Shown: positions 298 through 6,779, numbered from the stretch's first letter. The stretch: 32,000 bases of DNA from an uncultured Chloroflexia bacterium (GCA_963806635.1 CAWDZA010000023.1:226876-258875), one strand, 5' to 3'. The notes: generated by a model from the letters alone, not told the origin. Made by a program: numbers and translations.

Positions 298-520
298 CGG
301 TACCTCCAATAAGCCACAACACTCGATTCTTGCGAACAAAATTATATCACCCGGAAGTTTTCGTTAAGTGAAGTGAGTGTCATCAGCAATAAATTAACAT
401 TCTGTTTTAATGTTGTCCTACATTATACAAATATCATACAACAAGCGAGAATATACAATATATGGGAGACAATTATCGTTTAATCTATACGAATAGCTGT
501 CAGAAAAAATCTTTCCTTTA

Positions 521-720
521 TGCAATATTTGCATTCAGGCGGTAATGCAGAATTTGCCTCATTGGGTAAGTGCAAAATTTGCTATTTCGCGAAGTGGAGA
601 TTTTTGCATTCAGGCGGGAAGGCAGATTTTACCCTCCGGATTCCTGCGGGCAGGATTTGCCCTCCTTAAGGATGCAGAATATGCACGTGTTAAGAGTGCA
701 GAAGTTGCACGAGATTCTAA
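521..720. repeat. Tandem direct-repeat array (iteron/centromere-like), 8 units, ~25 bp period
   Basis: Core starts at 521, 546, 571, 596, 621, 649, 673, 697. Cores: TGCAATATTTGCAT, TGCAGAATTTGCCT, TGCAAAATTTGCTA, GGAGATTTTTGCAT, GGCAGATTTTACCC, GGCAGGATTTGCCC, TGCAGAATATGCAC, TGCAGAAGTTGCAC. Confidence 0.88.
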
Positions 721-726
721 TCACTA

Positions 727-1158
727 CTAATTAACGACTTTTTCTACTGGAAGACTCCTGGATCTTTTTTTATTCCTTTTCTGATCGTCGGTATGTAAAT
801 CAGGGATTACCAGATTCCAATCATAACGCGGGCTGCGAGAAGGAGTTTTGAGCGGACCAAGATCAAGACTGCCAGCGTTGAAAGATTCCAGAAAACGAAT
901 CAAAGCCAATGTGACCAGCTGACTGGCCGGAATTGACAATCGAGTGGAAAGATCGGATATTTGATTGCGAATGTGCGGGGGCAGGTCATACGTCGCGCGC
1001 CGCTCCCGCCGGTCTGCGATCTTTTGTCGTTCCCGGGCTTTTTTCTCGCGCTCGCGCCTTGGCATCTGTGCGTCCACCTGGCGCTGCTCCATCTCCTTCA
1101 ACAATGCCGAAACTTCCGGATCTATTAAATCCCTGCGGGGAAGGTTGCTTTTAGGCAT
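727..1158 (-). CDS. Small basic protein with ribbon-helix-helix-like C-terminal segment, candidate centromere-binding partner of ParA
   Basis: N-terminal basic/charged tail, then TYDLPPHIRNQISDLSTRLSIPASQLVTLALIRFLE (RHH-like beta-helix-helix). Start overlaps the parA stop by 8 nt. Confidence 0.6.
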   Translation of the reverse strand: MPKSNLPRRDLIDPEVSALLKEMEQRQVDAQMPRREREKKARERQKIADRRERRATYDLPPHIRNQISDLSTRLSIPASQLVTLALIRFLESFNAGSLDLGPLKTPSRSPRYDWNLVIPDLHTDDQKRNKKRSRSLPVEKVVN

Positions 1159-1942
1159 CCAGCACCTCCATAAATTTGGTTAGTATCTGACGGTACCCAC
1201 CGATCCGTCTGCGGTCCTCTGGCAAGCCTTTCATGGCCAGGCAGGTGGGCGCGTATTCCCAGAGCGTCCTGCCGTACGCCGGCGCTTCGCGGACACGAGT
1301 ATCCTGCGGGATGGGCGGCCACAGGTGTCCACCAAAGGTTTGGATCAAACTCTGGAACTGCAGGTAGGTCTCGCGGGTGGTACGGTCAAAAAATGTGGGT
1401 AGAATGCAGTAACCTTCCAGGGAATGACCCCGACGCGAGAACTCACCCATACTGCGGATCACCTCCTGCAACCCATCCACAGAAAGCGAATCCATACGGG
1501 TGGGGATGACCACCCAGTTGCTGGAAAGCAACCCACTTGCATGCAGGGAATCCAGCGAGGGTGCCATATCCAGGAGGACGACATCATACCCGCCCCCTGT
1601 GATCGCCTCCAGGAACCGAACACTGCCTGAGGGGGATTTTGCAAACTCGTTCTGCACGGCCTCGGTGTGCTTATCGCCGGGAAGCACATCCAGATTCTCA
1701 CGGGCGCCAACCACAAGCGAGGGCAGATCCCTGTTTTCACAGATCAGACCGAACAGCCCCGGCGACTTTGGCAGACCCAGGGAGAGGGCCACATGTCCCT
1801 GGGAATCCATGTCCACCAACAGAACCCGCCGGCCAGCCAGCGCCAGACCGTGGGCAAGCGTAACAGCAGTGGTGGTTTTTCCAACCCCACCTTTCTGGTT
1901 TGCAAACGATACAATCTTCACAAATTCCTCATCTGACACCAC
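1151..1942 (-). CDS. parA: ParA-family partition ATPase (ParA-1)
   Basis: Deviant Walker A SFANQKGGVGKTTTAVTLAHGLA; VLLVDMDSQGH; YDVVLLDMAPSLDSL. Confidence 0.93.
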   Translation of the reverse strand: MVSDEEFVKIVSFANQKGGVGKTTTAVTLAHGLALAGRRVLLVDMDSQGHVALSLGLPKSPGLFGLICENRDLPSLVVGARENLDVLPGDKHTEAVQNEFAKSPSGSVRFLEAITGGGYDVVLLDMAPSLDSLHASGLLSSNWVVIPTRMDSLSVDGLQEVIRSMGEFSRRGHSLEGYCILPTFFDRTTRETYLQFQSLIQTFGGHLWPPIPQDTRVREAPAYGRTLWEYAPTCLAMKGLPEDRRRIGGYRQILTKFMEVLDA

Positions 1943-2158
1943 CTTAATTTTGATCGTAATTCCAAAAATAAGGGTCGCCCCTAGAAATTATAGCTGAAAA
2001 TGAAAGAAATATTCAATAAATCGCTTTGGCGACCCTGCAATACTTTCAGCGTCACCCCATAAACCCCTCATTGGCACGAATAATGCGTTATTGTAAGTAA
2101 AGGCGTGAAAATGTACGCTTCAGAGAAATAATTCCAGGATATTTGAAAAAAGATGGGA

Positions 2159-2180
2159 AAGTGTAACCGCGGTTACACTT
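2159..2180. promoter_or_regulatory. 22-bp perfect palindrome AAGTGTAACCGCGGTTACACTT, candidate partition/regulatory protein site
   Basis: Exact self-complementary 22-mer abutting the parB stop codon; its inner 14 bp recurs at 6569-6582. Confidence 0.6.
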
Positions 2181-3325
2181 CAGGATTTTTTAATCCGGGC
2201 TTTGATCAGGCGGGAAAGCTCATCCAGGCGCGTGAGGGTTTCCTGTGCCTGGCCGAGAAAAACGACCTCATCAGCCAACAGGTCAAGAGCCTGGGATTGA
2301 TCCACGGGGTCAAGCCGATTTATTGAACGGATGAATTTCAGCAGGCTGCGGCTGGCCTCGCGCCCGGGATCGCGGGGAGAGGCGGGCGGTTTGCCGGTGG
2401 ATGGAACTGGCTGTTCAGGCGAACCGGAAACCACAGAGATCTCATCGGAGGTAAGCTGGCTCTGAATGCTCACCTGGATCAGGCGCTCCCATTGACGCTC
2501 CGGGGCGGAAAGGATCTCGCGCAGAACGCGCTCCGAAAGACGGTACCGGTCGGTGAGATCAAGCAGGGGGCTGGGAAGCTGCAGAATATTCAGAAGCTGC
2601 ACCATACGCGGGCGGGTGAGCTGCATGACCGGGGTGATCTTCTCCCACAATCCGGTGGGCATGCGCTGGGAGCGCACCCTGCGGAAATATTCGTATTCGT
2701 CCTGGACGGTTTCCTCGGCGGGCATTCCCATCTCGGAAAGGATCAGCGCGGAGATCTCGCAGGCCTGCTCGACTGCCGAAGGCGGCTCGGCGTGGCGGTT
2801 TTCCAGCACCTGACGCTGGCGGGTGGGATTATCCACCACCTCAACCCGCAGAAGGGGCTCCGCGGCGGAGTGGTTCTTTACTCTTTTTAAACAGGCCGCC
2901 CAGAAGCGTCTTTCACCGGTCTCGATCTGGAAAATATAGTTCCCGTTCGGACCTTCCTTCCAGGCGCCGGTGATCGGTTTGATCTGCCCATGCTCATCGA
3001 AGGATTCGCCCATGGCAACCAGGCGTTCGACCTCGGCTTTGATCGCCGGGTCGCTGCGCGCCATATCCAGCCAGGCAGCGGCCGCCCGGTAACAGTCAAT
3101 TTTTCCTGAAAAGAAGTCCACGCGGAGGGAGGGTGGTAAAAGGCGGCGGGGTTGAAAGCGATCGGGCAGCATTTGGCTGGGAGCCAGGCGCTCGATACGC
3201 TCAACAGCAGCGATGGGGCTAAGCGCAGGGGCCAGCGGCGCTGTACCAGTGCCGGGAATGGGACTCGCGGCCTCCTGAGAGAGATCGTCGAAGGCGTTGA
3301 AACGCTTCTTATTCTGGGGGGACAT
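2180..3325 (-). CDS. parB: ParB-family protein (ParB/Srx nuclease-like domain)
   Basis: Contains QIETGERRFWAACLKRV (ParB GERR motif) and a central helical/HTH-like region; follows parA with a 26-nt gap. Confidence 0.85.
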   Translation of the reverse strand: MSPQNKKRFNAFDDLSQEAASPIPGTGTAPLAPALSPIAAVERIERLAPSQMLPDRFQPRRLLPPSLRVDFFSGKIDCYRAAAAWLDMARSDPAIKAEVERLVAMGESFDEHGQIKPITGAWKEGPNGNYIFQIETGERRFWAACLKRVKNHSAAEPLLRVEVVDNPTRQRQVLENRHAEPPSAVEQACEISALILSEMGMPAEETVQDEYEYFRRVRSQRMPTGLWEKITPVMQLTRPRMVQLLNILQLPSPLLDLTDRYRLSERVLREILSAPERQWERLIQVSIQSQLTSDEISVVSGSPEQPVPSTGKPPASPRDPGREASRSLLKFIRSINRLDPVDQSQALDLLADEVVFLGQAQETLTRLDELSRLIKARIKKS

Positions 3326-3351
3326 GCCTGGCTCCTTTCCGGTCGGGGGAG

Positions 3352-4194
3352 TTAAACCCCACTGCCGGTCCTTTCCAACACGGTGTCCACCAATGCGGCA
3401 TACTCCTGGGTGGCGCGCGAACTGGACCAGATCTGCTCCGGGCTTTTGTGCCGGGGTGGACGGAAGCTGAAAACATCCATGTGGCTGGAGTGAGCGTAGG
3501 CGAGATCGGATGCTTTATGGATGGGTGCCAGAACCTGACCCGGAAAGCGGGTACGCAGCTCAGCCAGGATTTCCTGGGCTTCCGAGCGCTGTTCCTCGCA
3601 AAGCGTGGGCAGGTAACCAAATGTCTTTAGGTCGGGTCGGAAATGAACACGAACCTGGTCGATGGTACGCTGCAGCTCCATCAGCCCGGAGACACCCAGG
3701 TAGCTGGTCTCCACAGGGATGAGGACAAGATCTGCCGCCACCAGAGCATTCACCAGCAGGTGCCCGGTGGTGGGCGGCGTATCAATGATGATATAGGCAA
3801 ACTCTTTTGCAGCCGGGGCGAGCGCGCGGGAGAGGCGGGTTTCATTCGCCATCAGGGTGGGCAACAGGTGAGCCGCCTCCACCATCGCCGGGTGCGAGCT
3901 GGGGATCACATACAAATTGGGGTGGTACTGGCTGCGCTGAGTCATTCGCAGCGCGGAGGGAGGCGGGCTTTCCAACAACAGGCTGGAAAGATTGCCGCCG
4001 CCCGGGGTGGGTTTTATACCGAAGGCCGTGGCCAGCAGCGCATGTCCCTGAGGGTCCATATCCACCAGCAGCACCTTGCCAGCCGCCCCCGACCTCCCGG
4101 AAAGTTTCAGGGATAACCCGGCAGCAAGATTCACGGCGGTGGTGGTTTTTCCCACCCCGCCTTTTTCGTTGGCGATCGTGATCGTTACTGCCAT
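3352..4194 (-). CDS. parA: ParA-family partition ATPase (ParA-2)
   Basis: MAVTITIANEKGGVGKTTTAVNLAAGLS; VLLVDMDPQGHALLATAFG; YIIIDTPPTTGHLLVNAL. Confidence 0.94.
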   Translation of the reverse strand: MAVTITIANEKGGVGKTTTAVNLAAGLSLKLSGRSGAAGKVLLVDMDPQGHALLATAFGIKPTPGGGNLSSLLLESPPPSALRMTQRSQYHPNLYVIPSSHPAMVEAAHLLPTLMANETRLSRALAPAAKEFAYIIIDTPPTTGHLLVNALVAADLVLIPVETSYLGVSGLMELQRTIDQVRVHFRPDLKTFGYLPTLCEEQRSEAQEILAELRTRFPGQVLAPIHKASDLAYAHSSHMDVFSFRPPRHKSPEQIWSSSRATQEYAALVDTVLERTGSGV

Positions 4195-4300
4195 GAGCCC
4201 TCTATATGCCTGCAGTTAAGGAAAATATACACAACTTGAATAATCATACATAAATTTCACCCCTTAGTCAATATTAGCATAACTGGGCCAAATTCAGGAA

Positions 4301-4376
4301 TAATTGCCGTAAATTTTAGAGAATATGCAATAATTACCGTAAATCCCTTGAAATTAACCGGAATTCGTGCAATAAT
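4301..4376. repeat. Direct repeats TAATTRCCGTAAAT (30 bp apart) in the divergent parA-2/AAA+ intergenic region
   Basis: TAATTGCCGTAAAT at 4301-4314 and TAATTACCGTAAAT at 4331-4344; GCAATAAT also at 4328-4335 and 4369-4376. Confidence 0.6.
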
Positions 4377-4403
4377 AGTTCAAATGTATCAGGAGGAATA
4401 GCA

Positions 4404-5228
4404 ATGTTATCTTCCATGGGCGATGAGGATTGGCGATATGCGCGTCTTGAGCGGTTGGGTTTGAAGGAAGACCCTTTCAAACTTTCGGCGGATCCGCGCT
4501 ACCTTTATCTTGGTCCGGAGCACCTCGCAGTCTACCGGCAGGCTCAGGGCGTGATCTCACGCCGGCGCGGCCTGGCGCTGATCACCGGGGATATGGGCAT
4601 GGGCAAGAGTTCGCTTGCCCGGCGTCTTTATGACGTCTATAACCCTGATGAAAACGTTAAGGTTTATTACAACCACACCGCGGCATTTAAATCGGCGATG
4701 GATGCCGCCACCCAGATATCCCAGGCGCTCGGTATCCCCCCTCAGCGCAGCTTCCAGCGCCAGATGGAAAGCCTGGAGCAAAAAATGGCCTCGGCTTACA
4801 CCGCCAAGCAAAACGTGATCATTTTACTGGACGATGCCCAGATGATGAAGCCCGAAGCCCTGGAAGTGATCCACCGGATCTACAACTTTGATTATGACGT
4901 CAAGGTTGTGCAGATCCTGGCATTCGGACAGAGCGAAATGTCGAACCTGTTCGAGACCAACAAGGCGGTGAACGCGCGCGTTTTTGTGCGCCTGGTGCTG
5001 CCACCCCTCACCCTTTCCAGCGCGTTGCAGATGGTGATGTTCCGGTTGAACGTAGCCGGGCGTAATGAGAGCATGATCGACGACGATGCCTTTGAGCTGC
5101 TCTACGAGAAGTCTCAGGGGGTTCCGCGCGAGATCACCAAATTCTGCGCCTATGCCACCGACCTCCTTCTGCAAAGCGACGCCACCACCATTGACCGAAA
5201 CATAGTTCGGGAGGCGATCAGCGCATGA
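4404..5228 (+). CDS. ExeA/GspA/TniB-like AAA+ ATPase
   Basis: LKEDPFKLSADPRYLYLGPEHLAVYRQAQGVISRRRGLALITGDMGMGKSSLARRL (Walker A), VIILLDDAQMM (Walker B); AGGAGG ribosome-binding site. Confidence 0.85.
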   Translation: MLSSMGDEDWRYARLERLGLKEDPFKLSADPRYLYLGPEHLAVYRQAQGVISRRRGLALITGDMGMGKSSLARRLYDVYNPDENVKVYYNHTAAFKSAMDAATQISQALGIPPQRSFQRQMESLEQKMASAYTAKQNVIILLDDAQMMKPEALEVIHRIYNFDYDVKVVQILAFGQSEMSNLFETNKAVNARVFVRLVLPPLTLSSALQMVMFRLNVAGRNESMIDDDAFELLYEKSQGVPREITKFCAYATDLLLQSDATTIDRNIVREAISA

Positions 5229-5551
5229 CCACCCCAACCCCCCCCAGAGCCGCCTGGGTTCAGCTCTATGAAGCCAGGCGGGTTACAAGCGAGCCTGTTA
5301 CCCGTACCGCCGGGCGACCACCGGCATCCGTTCCCCGCCGCAAAGTGGGACTTACCCTCTCCCAGGGAGAGATCACCGAAATTGACGAATGGCAGCAGCG
5401 CTTTGCCGTCCTGCTGAAGCGCAAAGTCTCCGATGGCGAGACCGTTGGCATCCTGGTGCGCATCTGTACCGCCCGACTGAACCGCGTGGGCGAAGCAGAA
5501 AGCACCGGCGGTCTGTCAGCTTTTGTTGAAAAACTGATCGAGGCCGAGTAA
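5225..5551 (+). CDS. Small hypothetical protein, possibly RHH/DNA-binding, translationally coupled to the AAA+ ATPase
   Basis: ATGA overlap with upstream stop; RKVGLTLSQGEITEIDEWQQRFAVLLKRKVSDGETVGILVRICTARL is compatible with a short DNA-binding fold. Confidence 0.55.
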   Translation: MTTPTPPRAAWVQLYEARRVTSEPVTRTAGRPPASVPRRKVGLTLSQGEITEIDEWQQRFAVLLKRKVSDGETVGILVRICTARLNRVGEAESTGGLSAFVEKLIEAE

Positions 5552-5594
5552 TTGTTTCTTCCATAAAACACCCACATTAACGGAAGAAACAATT
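5550..5594. repeat. 13-bp perfect inverted repeat AATTGTTTCTTCC / GGAAGAAACAATT with 19-nt loop
   Basis: Arms 5550-5562 and 5582-5594, starting within the stop codon of the preceding ORF. Confidence 0.75.
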
Positions 5595-5704
5595 GAAAAT
5601 AAAAACCTTAACAAATCTTAAGATGGACGCCAGGTAGTAAAGGGGAGTAATCCCATCAAGAAAGAGCAAGCAGAAAAAGGATTTTAAGGCGAGAGAAACC
5701 AGTC

Positions 5705-6572
5705 ATGACCGATGCCGGCCGGCCAACCCAAACACACCCGAATCAGCGCGACGCCTGGCAGATCGTGCTTGGTCAGCTTCAGGCAGAGATGGCTCGCACC
5801 ATGTTCGAGACCTGGGTACAGCCCCTGCGTGTGGTCAATTTCCAGGATGGCGTTTTTACCCTGGGGGCGTTCAATCCCTTTGCCCGCGACTGGGTGCTCA
5901 ATCGGCTTAAAAAGCCGAATCACCCAACTTCTAGGCGCGGTCTATGCGGAGCCGGTGGAACTGCAGGTGGTGGTGATAAATGAGTTCTATCGCCCAGAGC
6001 AGACCCTGAGCTCAAGTACCCCGCCGACGAAAAACAAAGAAGGCGCAGAAAACCGGGTGGAAGTTTCGGAACCTGAGGAAAAGATCCAGATTCCGAACAA
6101 CCGCAAGATGATGCTGCAACGGGCATATGGGTCCCGGCGCGCCAAACTCATCGAACCGGAACGCGGCATGTTCGTAACGCTTTACTCCTTTTATAGCTGG
6201 CTGCCCCTGCTCGGTCATTCAGCTTATGCCACCATTCTGGCCGCCCGCTCACTTTGTTACTGGAACCCGATGACCGGTGAGCTGCGCAACGTGATCGAAA
6301 CCGATATGGCCGAGCTGGCCAGCCGCGCCGCGGTGAGCGTCCGCACGGTCAAAGATGTTCTTTCAAACGACCTGGTGCGGCTATACTTTCTGCGCTACAG
6401 AGTGCGCCGGATCATCACCCCCAACGGAGTACGAACCGCGGGCATTTCCTTGCAGGTACGCATGGACGATCCGCTCACCCCCCAGGACCAGGAGCTGAGC
6501 GGGTTGACCGAAACCGAACCCTGGTGTTCCCCCGATTTTGAGACGGACGAGGAACTGGACCGCGATCTGTAA
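5705..6572 (+). CDS. DnaA domain I-like plus winged-helix replication-initiator-like protein, interrupted by an apparent frameshift near 5917-5925
   Basis: Frame 1: WQIVLGQLQAEMARTMFETWVQPLRVVNFQDGVFTLGAFNPFARDWVLNRLKK (DnaA N-terminal-like). It continues in frame +1 as RITQLLGAVYAEPVELQVVVINEFYRPEQ...ELASRAAVSVRTVKDVLSNDLVRLYFLRY (HTH). The junction lies at AAAAA. Confidence 0.6.
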
Positions 6573-6582
6573 CCGCGGTTAC
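6569..6582. promoter_or_regulatory. 14-bp palindrome GTAACCGCGGTTAC overlapping the initiator stop codon
   Basis: Exact copy of the inner 14 bp of the palindrome at 2159-2180. Confidence 0.6.
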
Positions 6583-6779
6583 GGATTTCCGGCAGGGCAG
6601 GATGTTTTCTTCTTCAATTATATTAATGCGCATAGGTATATTGTCTTTTCTGTGTCTATTCAGTTAATACGTTTCGTGCTTTGACGACGGTTTCACGAAT
6701 GAACAGAGGATCCACTCTTGGTTTAGGGTTTTAGAAAGAGAGTTTTCGTACGGAATAATTTTGCAGGAAACGGGAGGGT

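What the first reader, a model, noticed from the sequence alone, without database searches (positions are those of the whole stretch)
2159..6582. GTAACCGCGGTTAC palindromes bracket the parB-parA2-AAA-initiator block
A perfect 22-bp palindrome AAGTGTAACCGCGGTTACACTT abuts the parB stop codon (2180). Its inner 14 bp recur exactly at 6569-6582, over the stop codon of the divergent initiator-like gene. Two exact copies at the two outer ends of a divergent block are unlikely by chance. They differ from canonical parS (TGTTTCACGTGAAACA) and may be a lineage-specific parS or operator.
Basis: partly seen in the sequence, partly recalled or inferred. Interest (0 to 1): 0.75.

Follow-up and report, generated by a model that had tools for sequence, protein, structure and literature searches.

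The report
Anaerolineae-specific parS centromere palindromes
The two identical palindromes are most likely the DNA docking (centromere, parS) sites of an unusual ParB segregation protein found throughout the Anaerolineaceae, so this is a new sequence version of a well-known system, not a new kind of system.

Summary
GTAACCGCGGTTAC occurs exactly twice in 32 kb. One copy (2163-2176) lies inside a perfect 22-bp palindrome abutting the parB-like stop codon. The other (6569-6582) lies over the stop codon of a DnaA_N-domain gene.

Comparison shows a conserved cis-element. In 80 Anaerolineaceae species, GTWACC-NN-GGTWAC occurs 200 times within 6 kb of the parB stop, and only 4 times in 514 kb beyond that, which is about chance. 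A site lies within 300 bp after the stop in 68 of 74 loci. The full element is about 24 bp: AAAnnGTAACCRYGGTTACnnTTT.

The reverse test agrees. Of 48 metagenome stretches carrying the 18-mer, 34 carry block genes.

The palindrome travels with ParA-ParB. A 36%-identical ParB that lacks the AAA/DnaA_N/RHH neighbours has TGTGTAACCCGGGTTACACA 4 nt after its stop. A plasmid-borne subfamily with a different HTH helix has TTTGCCACGTGGCAAA instead, at the same position.

The protein keeps ParB boxes I-III and the HTH but falls below curated family thresholds.

Bracketing of the block is specific to the window's clade (6 of 67 loci). Binding remains untested.

The block sits at an origin-like GC-skew switch.

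Verdict: lineage-specific parS, a new member of a known kind.

The parts
2159..2180 (.). parS-like site 1. Perfect 22-bp palindrome AAGTGTAACCGCGGTTACACTT (core 2163-2176) that abuts the parB-like stop codon.
   Evidence: An orthologous site lies within 300 bp after the parB stop in 68 of 74 species loci. It also scores as a weak bidirectional terminator-like hairpin.
6568..6582 (.). parS-like site 2. TGTAACCGCGGTTAC, with the exact 14-mer core overlapping the TAA stop of the DnaA_N gene. Its flanks match the extended consensus less well.
   Evidence: I17. A site at this position occurs only in the window's clade and a few others: 6 of 67 loci (L086-L089, L104, L141), plus L188.
2180..3325 (-). 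Divergent ParB-family gene (381 aa). It has box I PDRFQPRR, box II ETGERRFWAA, box III VLENRH and the HTH LTRPRMVQLLNILQLP. It is the proposed reader of the palindromes.
   Evidence: TIGR00180 E=3.2e-7 and ParB_N E=0.008, both below curated cut-offs. HTH_ParB gives weak hits in 13 of 20 family members. hhalign against solved ParBs is colinear over 186 columns, E=1.4e-3. The motifs are invariant in alignment A1.
3352..4194 (-). ParA2, a Walker-type partition ATPase (280 aa), directly upstream of parB in the same operon.
   Evidence: AAA_31 E=1.8e-38 and ParA_partition E=1.7e-25. It is adjacent to ParB in all 80 species loci.
4195..4403 (.). Divergent promoter region between parA2 and the AAA_22 gene. 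It has promoter-like sites on both strands and the conserved 10-mer ATATTAGCAT (about 4272-4281). It carries no GTAACC site in this clade.
   Evidence: The Bellilinea-like clade does have a site in this region, at -2054.
4404..5228 (+). AAA_22 ATPase (274 aa), ExeA/MuB-like. It is a conserved partner of the block.
   Evidence: AAA_22 E=4.5e-17, TIGR03015 E=1.3e-32 (below cut-off), phrog_296 'DNA transposition protein' E=4.7e-16. Present in 72 of 80 loci.
5225..5551 (+). Conserved 108-aa protein that matches no known family.
   Evidence: Present in 69 of 80 loci.
5705..6572 (+). It is frameshifted in the window by an extra A at 5905-5909.
   Evidence: Intact at 288 aa in L001 and L002. The indel was located.
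727..1942 (-). Second partition operon next to the block: ParA1 (1151-1942) plus a 143-aa putative DNA-binding protein (727-1158). It has its own repeats and does not need the palindromes.
   Evidence: weak hit to a transcriptional regulator. GGCGACCCT repeats lie at its promoter, at 1971-1979 and 2028-2036, and occur as arrays of 4-5 in other species.
520..710 (.). Array of about 8 copies of a 13-nt ATGCAGAATTTGC-like repeat at about 25-bp spacing. It lies downstream of the ParA1 operon, next to an AT-rich stretch. It could be a type-Ib centromere or origin iterons.
   Evidence: D1, D4. Similar TGCAAATTT arrays sit at the same position in L112, L117, L124, L158, L161 and L164.

Best explanation
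The two palindromes are parS-type centromere sites, the specific loading sites of the divergent ParB-family protein encoded at 2180-3325. A ParB dimer would read the two GTAACC half-sites through its helix-turn-helix. The half-sites form a 14-bp core, GTAACC-RY-GGTTAC, which A/T tracts extend to about 24 bp.

By analogy with characterised ParB CTPases, whose box I-III motifs this protein retains, site-bound ParB would close as a CTP-dependent clamp and spread over the neighbouring few kilobases. The resulting partition complex would be moved by the adjacent ParA2 ATPase.

In the window's lineage the two sites lie 4.4 kb apart at the outer ends of the divergent parA2-parB / AAA-p108-DnaA_N block. 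ParB spreading from both would therefore cover the block and its divergent promoter. That arrangement is clade-specific. The conserved rule is one site right after the parB stop plus one to six more within about 6 kb.

Shown here: the sequence, its conservation, its position, its rarity elsewhere, and its co-occurrence with ParA-ParB. Inferred: binding by ParB, CTP-dependent spreading, and segregation.
For: 1. Exactness. There are two exact copies and no near-copies elsewhere in 32 kb; none of 100 shuffles matched this.

2. Gene to motif. In 80 species loci (1.33 Mb), GTAACCNNGGTTAC with at most 1 mismatch occurs 189 times. The median for 179 composition-matched control palindromes is 2, and the maximum is 14. 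There are 98 hits in the first kilobase after the parB stop. Allowing W at position 3, there are 200 sites within 6 kb either side and 4 in 514 kb beyond, which is about the chance expectation. A site lies within 300 bp after the stop in 68 of 74 loci, at a median distance of 31 bp.

3. Unbiased scan. AAGTGTAACC is the most widely shared 10-mer of the locus: 60 of 80 loci in the core against 5 in the flanks. It outranks k-mers from conserved coding sequence.

4. Motif to gene. The 18-mer GTGTAACCGCGGTTACAC occurs in 48 metagenome stretches. Of these, 31 hold the ParB-like gene and 34 hold block genes. About 5 more are short contigs with the family's AAA/TTT flanks. In viral contigs the 14-mer occurs only as singletons.

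5. The palindrome travels with ParA-ParB.
- L220 has a ParB 36% identical to the window's, with ParA-ParB only and no AAA_22, DnaA_N, p108 or RHH. It carries TGTGTAACCCGGGTTACACA four times, one copy 4 nt after the parB stop.
- The ZRK35 plasmid subfamily (27-29% identity overall, 39% in the best segment) has a different HTH helix. It carries TTTGCCACGTGGCAAA three or four times just after parB, plus one copy on the far side of the divergent unit. This is conserved in a 76%-identical relative.

6. The protein is ParB-like. Boxes I-III and the HTH segment are invariant in the family. It aligns colinearly with solved ParBs. It always follows a ParA gene.

7. Intragenic copies lie in variable protein regions. 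The peptide changes (RYRGY, CNRGY, CNHGY) while the DNA motif is kept.

8. The neighbouring ParA1 operon has its own repeats.
Against: - There is no binding data.
- The ParB-like protein fails the curated Pfam and NCBIfam thresholds. A profile search against PDB sequences found nothing, and hhalign probability is only 18%.
- No structure model could be obtained; ten calls failed.
- L220's HTH helix differs from the main family's at several positions yet goes with the same GTAACC half-site. A simple helix-to-motif code is therefore not established.
- Rarity was measured only within 10 kb of parB and in metagenome fragments, not in a closed genome.
- Site 1 also resembles a bidirectional terminator hairpin, so part of the conserved A/T flanks could serve termination.
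Confidence: 0.8

Rival explanations
1. The palindromes are binding sites (an operator, or origin-recognition sites) of another block protein, namely the DnaA_N-domain protein, the 108-aa protein or the 143-aa RHH-like protein, and not of ParB.
For: - Site 2 overlaps the DnaA_N gene's stop codon.
- These genes co-occur with the motif in most of the 80 loci.
- The block lies at an origin-like GC-skew switch.
- In the ZRK35 subfamily both the motif and the 'initiator' gene differ.
Against: - L220 keeps GTAACC-type palindromes 4 nt after parB although it has no DnaA_N, p108, AAA_22 or RHH genes.
- ZRK35-type loci keep the same site architecture without DnaA_N, p108 or RHH.
- The position peak is at the parB 3' end (95 of 204 sites), not at promoters or at the DnaA_N gene (6 sites).
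- The ParA1-RHH operon has its own GGCGACCCT repeats.
- Single dispersed palindromes are unlike iteron origins.
Confidence: 0.07
2. The palindromes are only bidirectional intrinsic transcription terminators at the ends of convergent or adjacent operons.
For: - Site 1 is flagged as terminator-like on both strands.
- It folds as a 9-10-bp hairpin with a 4-nt loop: -15.6 kcal/mol for the 61-nt context, z=-4.3.
- The consensus has A-tract and T-tract flanks.
- Most sites lie at gene 3' ends.
Against: - Terminators conserve structure, not sequence. Here the 12 core bases are essentially invariant across species whose ParB is only 51-88% identical, and the core recurs in a 36%-identical subfamily.
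- The U-tract after site 1 starts about 7 nt after the stem, and site 2 has no U-tract.
- About 30 sites lie inside coding regions, and some lie in promoter regions.
- Dedicated terminators would not be confined to one locus. A secondary terminator role for site 1 remains possible.
Confidence: 0.05
3. The two copies are terminal inverted repeats or recombination sites that delimit a mobile or invertible cassette carrying the par/initiator block.
For: A 15-nt perfect inverted-repeat pair brackets a 4.4-kb gene block (I17). Relatives of the module occur on a plasmid and on a conjugative-element-like contig.
Against: - Each site is itself a palindrome, so it has no orientation.
- The block contains no transposase or recombinase.
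- The block is syntenic in 80 species, while the copy number (0-7) and positions of the sites vary.
- Bracketing occurs in only 6 of 67 loci.
Confidence: 0.02
4. The repeat is a chance or compositional coincidence, or a generic dispersed palindrome (REP-like, or a restriction-site artefact such as SacII CCGCGG).
For: The motif contains a CCGCGG core. Isolated copies occur in unrelated viral and metagenome contigs.
Against: Shuffles, control palindromes, the position profile and the reverse association with the ParB block all exclude it.
Confidence: 0.01

Closest known systems
Chromosomal ParABS (Spo0J/ParB with parS TGTTNCACGTGAAACA)
   Same: - A palindromic site of similar size, with outer TGT...ACA, placed at or next to the parB 3' end.
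- A few copies clustered around parAB.
- ParB carries box I (QPR), box II (GERRxxAA), box III (EN) and an R..V..L.LL.LP-type HTH.
- A ParA gene lies directly upstream.
- The locus sits at an origin-like GC-skew switch.
   Different: - The core sequence differs: there are no matches to canonical parS at 3 mismatches or fewer in the window.
- The element extends to about 24 bp through A/T tracts.
- The protein is 381 aa, with a long N-terminal extension and a 34-residue insertion after box I.
- It falls below curated ParB thresholds, and its profile recovers only 531 cluster representatives of 1.84 billion, so it does not reach canonical ParBs.
- The conserved partners AAA_22, p108 and the DnaA_N protein are not part of canonical loci.
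Replicon-specific ParB/parS pairs of plasmids and secondary chromosomes (P1 ParB-parS, F SopB-sopC, Vibrio cholerae ParB2-parS2, Burkholderia cenocepacia replicon-specific parS); from established knowledge
   Same: Each ParB lineage has its own palindrome, placed just downstream of parB. Here three related subfamilies have GTAACC-RY-GGTTAC, GTAACC-CG-GGTTAC and TTTGCCACGTGGCAAA. One subfamily sits on a 179.7-kb circular plasmid.
   Different: The main family is vertically conserved in at least 381 Anaerolineaceae species, next to housekeeping-type genes, on contigs of up to 478 kb. Its replicon type is unknown. There was no sequence-level match in the plasmid collection other than the ZRK35 plasmid.
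KorB-OB of IncP plasmid RK2 (a ParB-family CTPase that doubles as a long-range repressor); from established knowledge
   Same: A ParB-family protein with palindromic sites spread over several positions of a replication/partition region, some in promoters and some at a distance. This is a possible model for sites that flank a divergent operon pair.
   Different: No KorA-like partner was identified. In the window neither site overlaps a promoter-like element. A regulatory role is purely conjectural here.
Noc-NBS (a ParB paralogue with altered specificity, site ATTTCCCGGGAAAT); from established knowledge, with PDB hits
   Same: It shows that a few changes in the ParB HTH can retarget the protein to a different 14-16-bp palindrome.
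   Different: Noc sites are scattered over the chromosome and Noc has no ParA partner. Here the sites are confined to the par locus and a ParA gene is always adjacent.

Membership tests
ParB/Spo0J (ParB-CTPase) superfamily | Score at or above the curated family thresholds (Pfam ParB_N / HTH_ParB, NCBIfam TIGR00180). | tested here: not met
   ParB_N scores 16.6 bits against a cut-off of 26.3. TIGR00180 scores 30.3 bits (E=3.2e-7) against a cut-off of 58.45. HTH_ParB scores 14 bits against 22.6.
ParB/Spo0J (ParB-CTPase) superfamily | N-terminal domain motifs: box I (xPxQPR), box II arginine patch (GERRxRAA), box III (ENxxR/E). | tested here: met
   PDRFQPRR, ETGERRFWAA and VLENRHAE are invariant in 20 family members. 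They align to the corresponding motifs of B. subtilis, M. xanthus and T. thermophilus ParB. Box III has A where the canonical sequence has R.
ParB/Spo0J (ParB-CTPase) superfamily | A helix-turn-helix DNA-binding domain directly after the N-terminal domain. | tested here: inconclusive
   HTH_ParB gives weak hits in 13 of 20 members, at residues 234-295. hhalign places LTRPRMVQLLNILQLP on GKSRPHIANHLRLLTLP, but at E=1.4e-3 and probability 18%. No structure model could be obtained.
ParB/Spo0J (ParB-CTPase) superfamily | Encoded directly downstream of a Walker-type ParA ATPase. | tested here: met
   ParA2 ends 27 nt before parB in the window. ParA2 and ParB are found in all 80 of the 80 loci.
ParB/Spo0J (ParB-CTPase) superfamily | CTP binding and hydrolysis, clamp closure at parS, and C-terminal dimerisation. 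| not testable with these tools
   This needs biochemistry.
parS centromere site | A short palindrome located in or next to the parAB operon. | tested here: met
   The window's site abuts the parB stop. A site lies within 300 bp after the stop in 68 of 74 loci, at a median of 31 bp.
parS centromere site | Few copies, clustered, and rare elsewhere in the replicon. | tested here: inconclusive
   Loci carry 0-7 sites, typically 2-4. There are 200 sites within 6 kb either side and 4 (about chance) in 514 kb beyond. No closed genome was available for a true genome-wide count.
parS centromere site | Specific to, and co-varying with, its cognate ParB. | tested here: met
   Three ParB subfamilies carry three palindromes at the same position. 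L220 keeps the palindrome with ParA-ParB alone. The reverse search gave 34 of 48 stretches in the block.
parS centromere site | Matches the canonical parS consensus TGTTNCACGTGAAACA. | tested here: not met
   There are 0 matches at 3 mismatches or fewer in the window. By inspection, only the outer TGT/ACA and one C per half-site are shared.
parS centromere site | Bound by ParB in vitro or in vivo, and confers ParAB-dependent stability. | not testable with these tools
   This requires EMSA, ChIP-seq or plasmid-stability assays.
Rho-independent terminator | A GC-rich hairpin immediately followed by a U-tract. | tested here: inconclusive
   Site 1 passes the lax scan on both strands, with only 3 GC pairs, and its U-run starts about 7 nt after the stem. 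Site 2 has no U-tract.
Transposon or cassette terminal inverted repeats | A transposase or recombinase between the repeats, and fixed ends in relatives. | tested here: not met
   The block contains no such gene. Site number and position vary between species.

The most novel reading that the evidence does not exclude
The par block marks the replication origin and centromere of a conserved Anaerolineaceae replicon. That replicon is either the chromosome's own origin region, with no dnaA gene or DnaA-box cluster nearby, or a family-wide secondary replicon (chromid) of roughly 0.15-0.5 Mb.

On this reading the DnaA_N-domain protein and the ExeA/MuB-like AAA+ ATPase act as a non-canonical initiator and loader pair. 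The 25-bp-spaced TGCAnAAnTTGCA array with its AT-rich stretch (window about 300-720) is the origin. The GTAACCRYGGTTAC sites are the origin-flanking parS sites.

Supporting hints:
- A switch of GC skew from negative to positive across the block in 52 species, independent of gene strand.
- No contig carrying the block is longer than 478 kb, across about 240 protein clusters and 80 species.
- A sister module sits on a 180-kb circular plasmid.
Probability: 0.3. Interest if true: 0.75.

Novelty: new member of a known kind. Interest (0 to 1): 0.5.

Why it matters
The result gives a concrete, testable centromere sequence, about 24 bp with core GTAACC-RY-GGTTAC. It goes with a ParB clade so divergent that standard family models miss it, yet the clade is conserved in at least 381 species of an abundant and poorly studied bacterial family.

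Together with two sister subfamilies that have related or different palindromes, it offers a natural series for studying how ParB specificity changes.

It also provides a marker for locating the partition locus, and possibly the replication origin or a hidden secondary replicon, in Anaerolineaceae MAGs. No literature hit for the motif or for Anaerolineae parS was found.

Tried and rejected
- **Canonical parS and DnaA boxes.** Canonical parS has 0 hits in the window. DnaA boxes are at chance level, 6 against 4.8 expected, with no cluster.
- **Rfam.** Nothing reached gathering thresholds.
- **Viral contigs.** The 14-mer occurs in 71 stretches, all as singletons. Only one weak ParB relative was found there, so this is not a phage element.
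- **Plasmid collection.** tblastn found only the distant ZRK35 plasmid.
- **PDB profile search.** The ParB family gave no meaningful hit.
- **Structure prediction.** It failed ten times, so no fold search was possible.
- **Closed genome.** A third protein search, meant to find a closed Anaerolineaceae genome carrying the block, returned only MAG contigs no longer than 478 kb. The question of chromosome versus chromid stays open.
- **Literature.** Searches for the motif, for Chloroflexi/Anaerolineae parS, for ZRK35 and for Anaerolineae chromids gave nothing relevant.
- **Wasted script calls.** One printed nothing and one timed out.
- **Rejected readings.** Chance repeat, REP-like element, transposon ends, pure terminator, and operator of the DnaA_N, RHH or p108 proteins. 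See the rival explanations.

Full report
**Observation**

The window contains AAGTGTAACCGCGGTTACACTT at 2159-2180. It is a perfect 22-bp palindrome whose last base is the first base of the minus-strand stop codon of ORF 2180-3325. The inner 14-mer GTAACCGCGGTTAC (2163-2176) recurs exactly at 6569-6582, where the TAA stop of ORF 5712-6572 lies inside it. The copies share 15 nt. No other copy exists at 2 mismatches or fewer, and none of 100 shuffles gave as many hits.

**Gene content**

Searches identify the following, from left to right:
- 727-1158(-): a 143-aa protein with no family match.
- 1151-1942(-): ParA1.
- 2180-3325(-): a 381-aa ParB-like protein. TIGR00180 gives E=3.2e-7 and ParB_N gives E=0.008, both below curated cut-offs.
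- 3352-4194(-): ParA2.
- A divergent promoter region.
- 4404-5228(+): an AAA_22 ATPase of ExeA/MuB type (phrog_296, E=4.7e-16).
- 5225-5551(+): a 108-aa protein with no family match.
- 5705-6572(+): a DnaA_N-domain protein.

The last gene is split in the window by an extra A in the run at 5905-5909. It is intact (288 aa) in near-identical contigs. Several other single-base indels separate the window from L001, so the frameshift is probably a homopolymer assembly error. The rest of the window encodes ordinary metabolic genes.

**The ParB-like protein**

Twenty homologues (57-86% identity to the window protein) keep these segments invariant: PDRFQPRR (box I), ETGERRFWAA (box II), VLENRH (box III) and LTRPRMVQLLNILQLP. 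Weak HTH_ParB hits occur in 13 of 20 members and weak ParB_N hits in 11 of 20.

I checked a recalled B. subtilis Spo0J sequence against PDB entry 6SDK; it matched exactly over residues 21-218. I then built a small alignment from it plus tool-printed M. xanthus and T. thermophilus ParB sequences. hhalign aligns the family colinearly over 186 columns, covering boxes I-III and the HTH. The E-value is 1.4e-3 but the probability is only 18%.

The family profile recovers only 531 cluster representatives of 1.84 billion. This is therefore a small, very divergent ParB clade.

**Gene-to-motif test**

Homologues are abundant in Anaerolineaceae. A scan of one genome per species found 381 species with a relative; the best 80 loci were kept.
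- GTAACCNNGGTTAC with at most 1 mismatch occurs 189 times in 1.33 Mb. The median for 179 composition-matched control palindromes is 2 and the maximum is 14. There are 98 hits in the first kilobase after the parB stop.
- Allowing A or T at position 3, there are 204 sites. Of these, 200 lie within 6 kb either side of the stop and 4 lie in the 514 kb beyond. My estimate of the chance expectation there is about 4.
- A site lies within 300 bp after the stop in 68 of 74 eligible loci, at a median of 31 bp, and within 20 bp in 32 loci.
- Loci carry 0-7 sites, typically 2-4. The extended consensus is AAA-nn-GTAACC-RY-GGTTAC-nn-TTT.
- An unbiased 10-mer scan ranks AAGTGTAACC first, present in 60 of 80 loci in the core against 5 in the flanks.

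**Motif-to-gene test**

The 18-mer GTGTAACCGCGGTTACAC occurs in 48 metagenome stretches. Of these, 31 encode the ParB-like protein and 34 encode block genes. About five more are short contigs with the family's AAA/TTT flanks. Nine look unrelated: they have other extended palindromes and low GC. In viral contigs the 14-mer occurs only as singletons.

**Which protein reads the site?**

Sites map as follows:
- 95 to the parB 3' end
- 22 after the 143-aa gene
- 15 before ParA1
- 6 to the DnaA_N 3' end
- about 30 inside par genes

The intragenic copies sit in variable protein segments. The peptide changes (RYRGY, CNRGY, CNHGY) while the DNA motif is kept.

Two sister subfamilies are decisive.
- On the circular 179.7-kb plasmid of Chloroflexota strain ZRK35, the unit AAA_22-like <-|-> ParA -> ParB has TTTGCCACGTGGCAAA three times, plus one variant, just after parB. 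One further copy lies beyond the AAA gene. Its ParB is 27-29% identical overall and 39% in the best segment. There is no DnaA_N, p108 or RHH gene. A 76%-identical relative keeps the same motif and the same positions. Its HTH segment, ISQYQYYRFRKLLELP, differs from the main family's.
- L220 has a ParB 36% identical to the window's, in a conjugative-element-like context with ParA-ParB only. It has TGTGTAACCCGGGTTACACA four times: one copy 4 nt after the parB stop and one upstream of parA.

ParB is the only sequence-specific DNA-binding candidate common to all three.

The neighbouring ParA1 operon has its own GGCGACCCT repeats.

**What is not conserved**

The site at the DnaA_N stop, and hence the 'bracketing' of the block, occurs in only 6 of 67 loci. 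Other clades bracket the ParA1 operon instead. Some place a site in the divergent promoter (-2054) or inside parA2 or parB. In the window neither site overlaps a promoter-like element, so a classical operator role is unsupported.

Site 1 does resemble a weak bidirectional terminator, and a secondary role is possible. However, sequence-level invariance, intragenic copies and locus restriction all argue against terminators as the explanation.

**Mechanism proposed**

Dimeric ParB binds the two GTAACC half-sites through its HTH. By analogy with characterised ParB CTPases, it closes as a clamp and spreads. ParA2 then moves the complex. Every step after sequence conservation and association is inferred.

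**Context noticed**

Across 52 species the flank beyond the DnaA_N side has negative GC skew (mean -0.021). The flank downstream of parB has positive skew (mean +0.018). The paired test gives p=3e-5. The side effect persists after controlling for ORF strand (t=7.2). This is the polarity expected at a replication origin.

Downstream of the ParA1 operon, an array of about 8 copies of a 13-nt repeat at about 25-bp spacing (window 520-710) lies next to an AT-rich stretch. Similar arrays recur in other species. No contig with the block exceeds 478 kb. Whether the replicon is the chromosome or a chromid could not be decided.

**Comparison and novelty**

This works like a ParABS centromere. By sequence motifs and context the protein belongs to the ParB superfamily, but it fails curated thresholds. 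The site does not match canonical parS. Replicon-specific and lineage-specific parS variants are a known phenomenon, so I rate this a new member of a known kind.

It has added value as a family-wide marker and as part of a three-member specificity series. No prior description was found.

Interest is 0.5. Confidence that these are the cognate ParB sites is 0.8.

Noticed in passing
window 5905-5909 (gene 5705-6572): The DnaA_N-domain gene is frameshifted by one extra A in an A-run relative to L001 and L002, where it is intact at 288 aa. Several other single-base indels against L001 occur between 7686 and 10325. This suggests homopolymer errors from a long-read assembly, not a real pseudogene.
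   Followed up: yes
window 520-710 (AT-rich stretch about 360-520 alongside): There are about 8 copies of a 13-nt ATGCAGAATTTGC-like repeat at about 25-bp spacing, just downstream of the ParA1/143-aa operon. Similar TGCAAATTT arrays lie at the same relative position in L112, L117, L124, L158, L161 and L164. The array could be a type-Ib centromere or origin iterons.
   Followed up: partly
window 1971-1982 and 2028-2036: An inverted pair, AGGGTCGCC and GGCGACCCT, flanks the promoter-like -35/-10 of ParA1. The 10-mer AGGGGCGACC is present in 59 of 80 species loci, and arrays of 4-5 copies lie upstream of ParA1 in many of them. It is probably the operator or centromere of the second (ParA1 plus 143-aa protein) partition system.
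   Followed up: partly
L086-L165, flanks of the block (window: block at 727-6582): GC skew switches from negative (DnaA_N side) to positive (downstream of parB) in 52 species. The paired Wilcoxon test gives p=3e-5, and the side effect has t=7.2 after controlling for ORF strand. The polarity is origin-like. No DnaA-box cluster is present in the window.
   Followed up: partly
window about 4272-4281: The conserved non-coding 10-mer ATATTAGCAT abuts the promoter-like -35 of parA2 in the divergent intergenic region. It is present in 39 of 80 species loci and never in their flanks. It could be a promoter element or an operator for an unknown factor.
   Followed up: no
L091-L160, ParA1 residue about 174, and ParA2 at about query residue 216 (tblastn mapping): Intragenic GT(A/T)ACC(RY)GGTTAC copies are embedded in a variable segment just before the conserved GYxILPT motif. 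They are encoded as RYRGY, CNRGY or CNHGY, so the DNA motif is kept while the peptide varies.
   Followed up: partly
L166 (CP069395.1, plasmid plas-ZRK) 7987, 11023, 11103, 11215, 11323; L216 8155, 11176, 11318, 11372: A sister ParB subfamily sits on a 179.7-kb circular Chloroflexota plasmid, and its relatives sit on 134-231-kb contigs. It uses a different palindrome, TTTGCCACGTGGCAAA, with the same placement. A 739-744-aa protein with no family match replaces the p108/DnaA_N genes.
   Followed up: yes
L220 6919, 9171, 10440, 14827: A third ParB subfamily occurs on a contig that looks like a conjugative element (Replic_Relax, TrwB/DUF87-like, M23 peptidase). It carries TGTGTAACCCGGGTTACACA four times, with the same half-site as the window but a CG centre.
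   Followed up: yes
window 5550-5594: An 18-nt inverted repeat (AATTGTTTCTTCCATAAA / TTAACGGAAGAAACAATT, 89% complementary, 9-nt spacer) starts at the stop codon of the 108-aa gene and lies upstream of the DnaA_N gene. It could be a terminator or a regulatory hairpin.
   Followed up: no
L217 20682, 20885, 21054, 21146: There are four copies of gagcaGGGGCTTCAGCCCCgcgt hairpin repeats at irregular spacing (203, 169 and 92 bp) at the end of a locus from a related MAG. This is a REP-like or other repeated element unrelated to the par block.
   Followed up: no
window 6690-6705: An isolated half of the canonical parS (GGTTTCACGAATG contains GTTTCACG) lies in the AT-rich convergent intergenic region after site 2. 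There is no matching second half, so it is probably chance.
   Followed up: no
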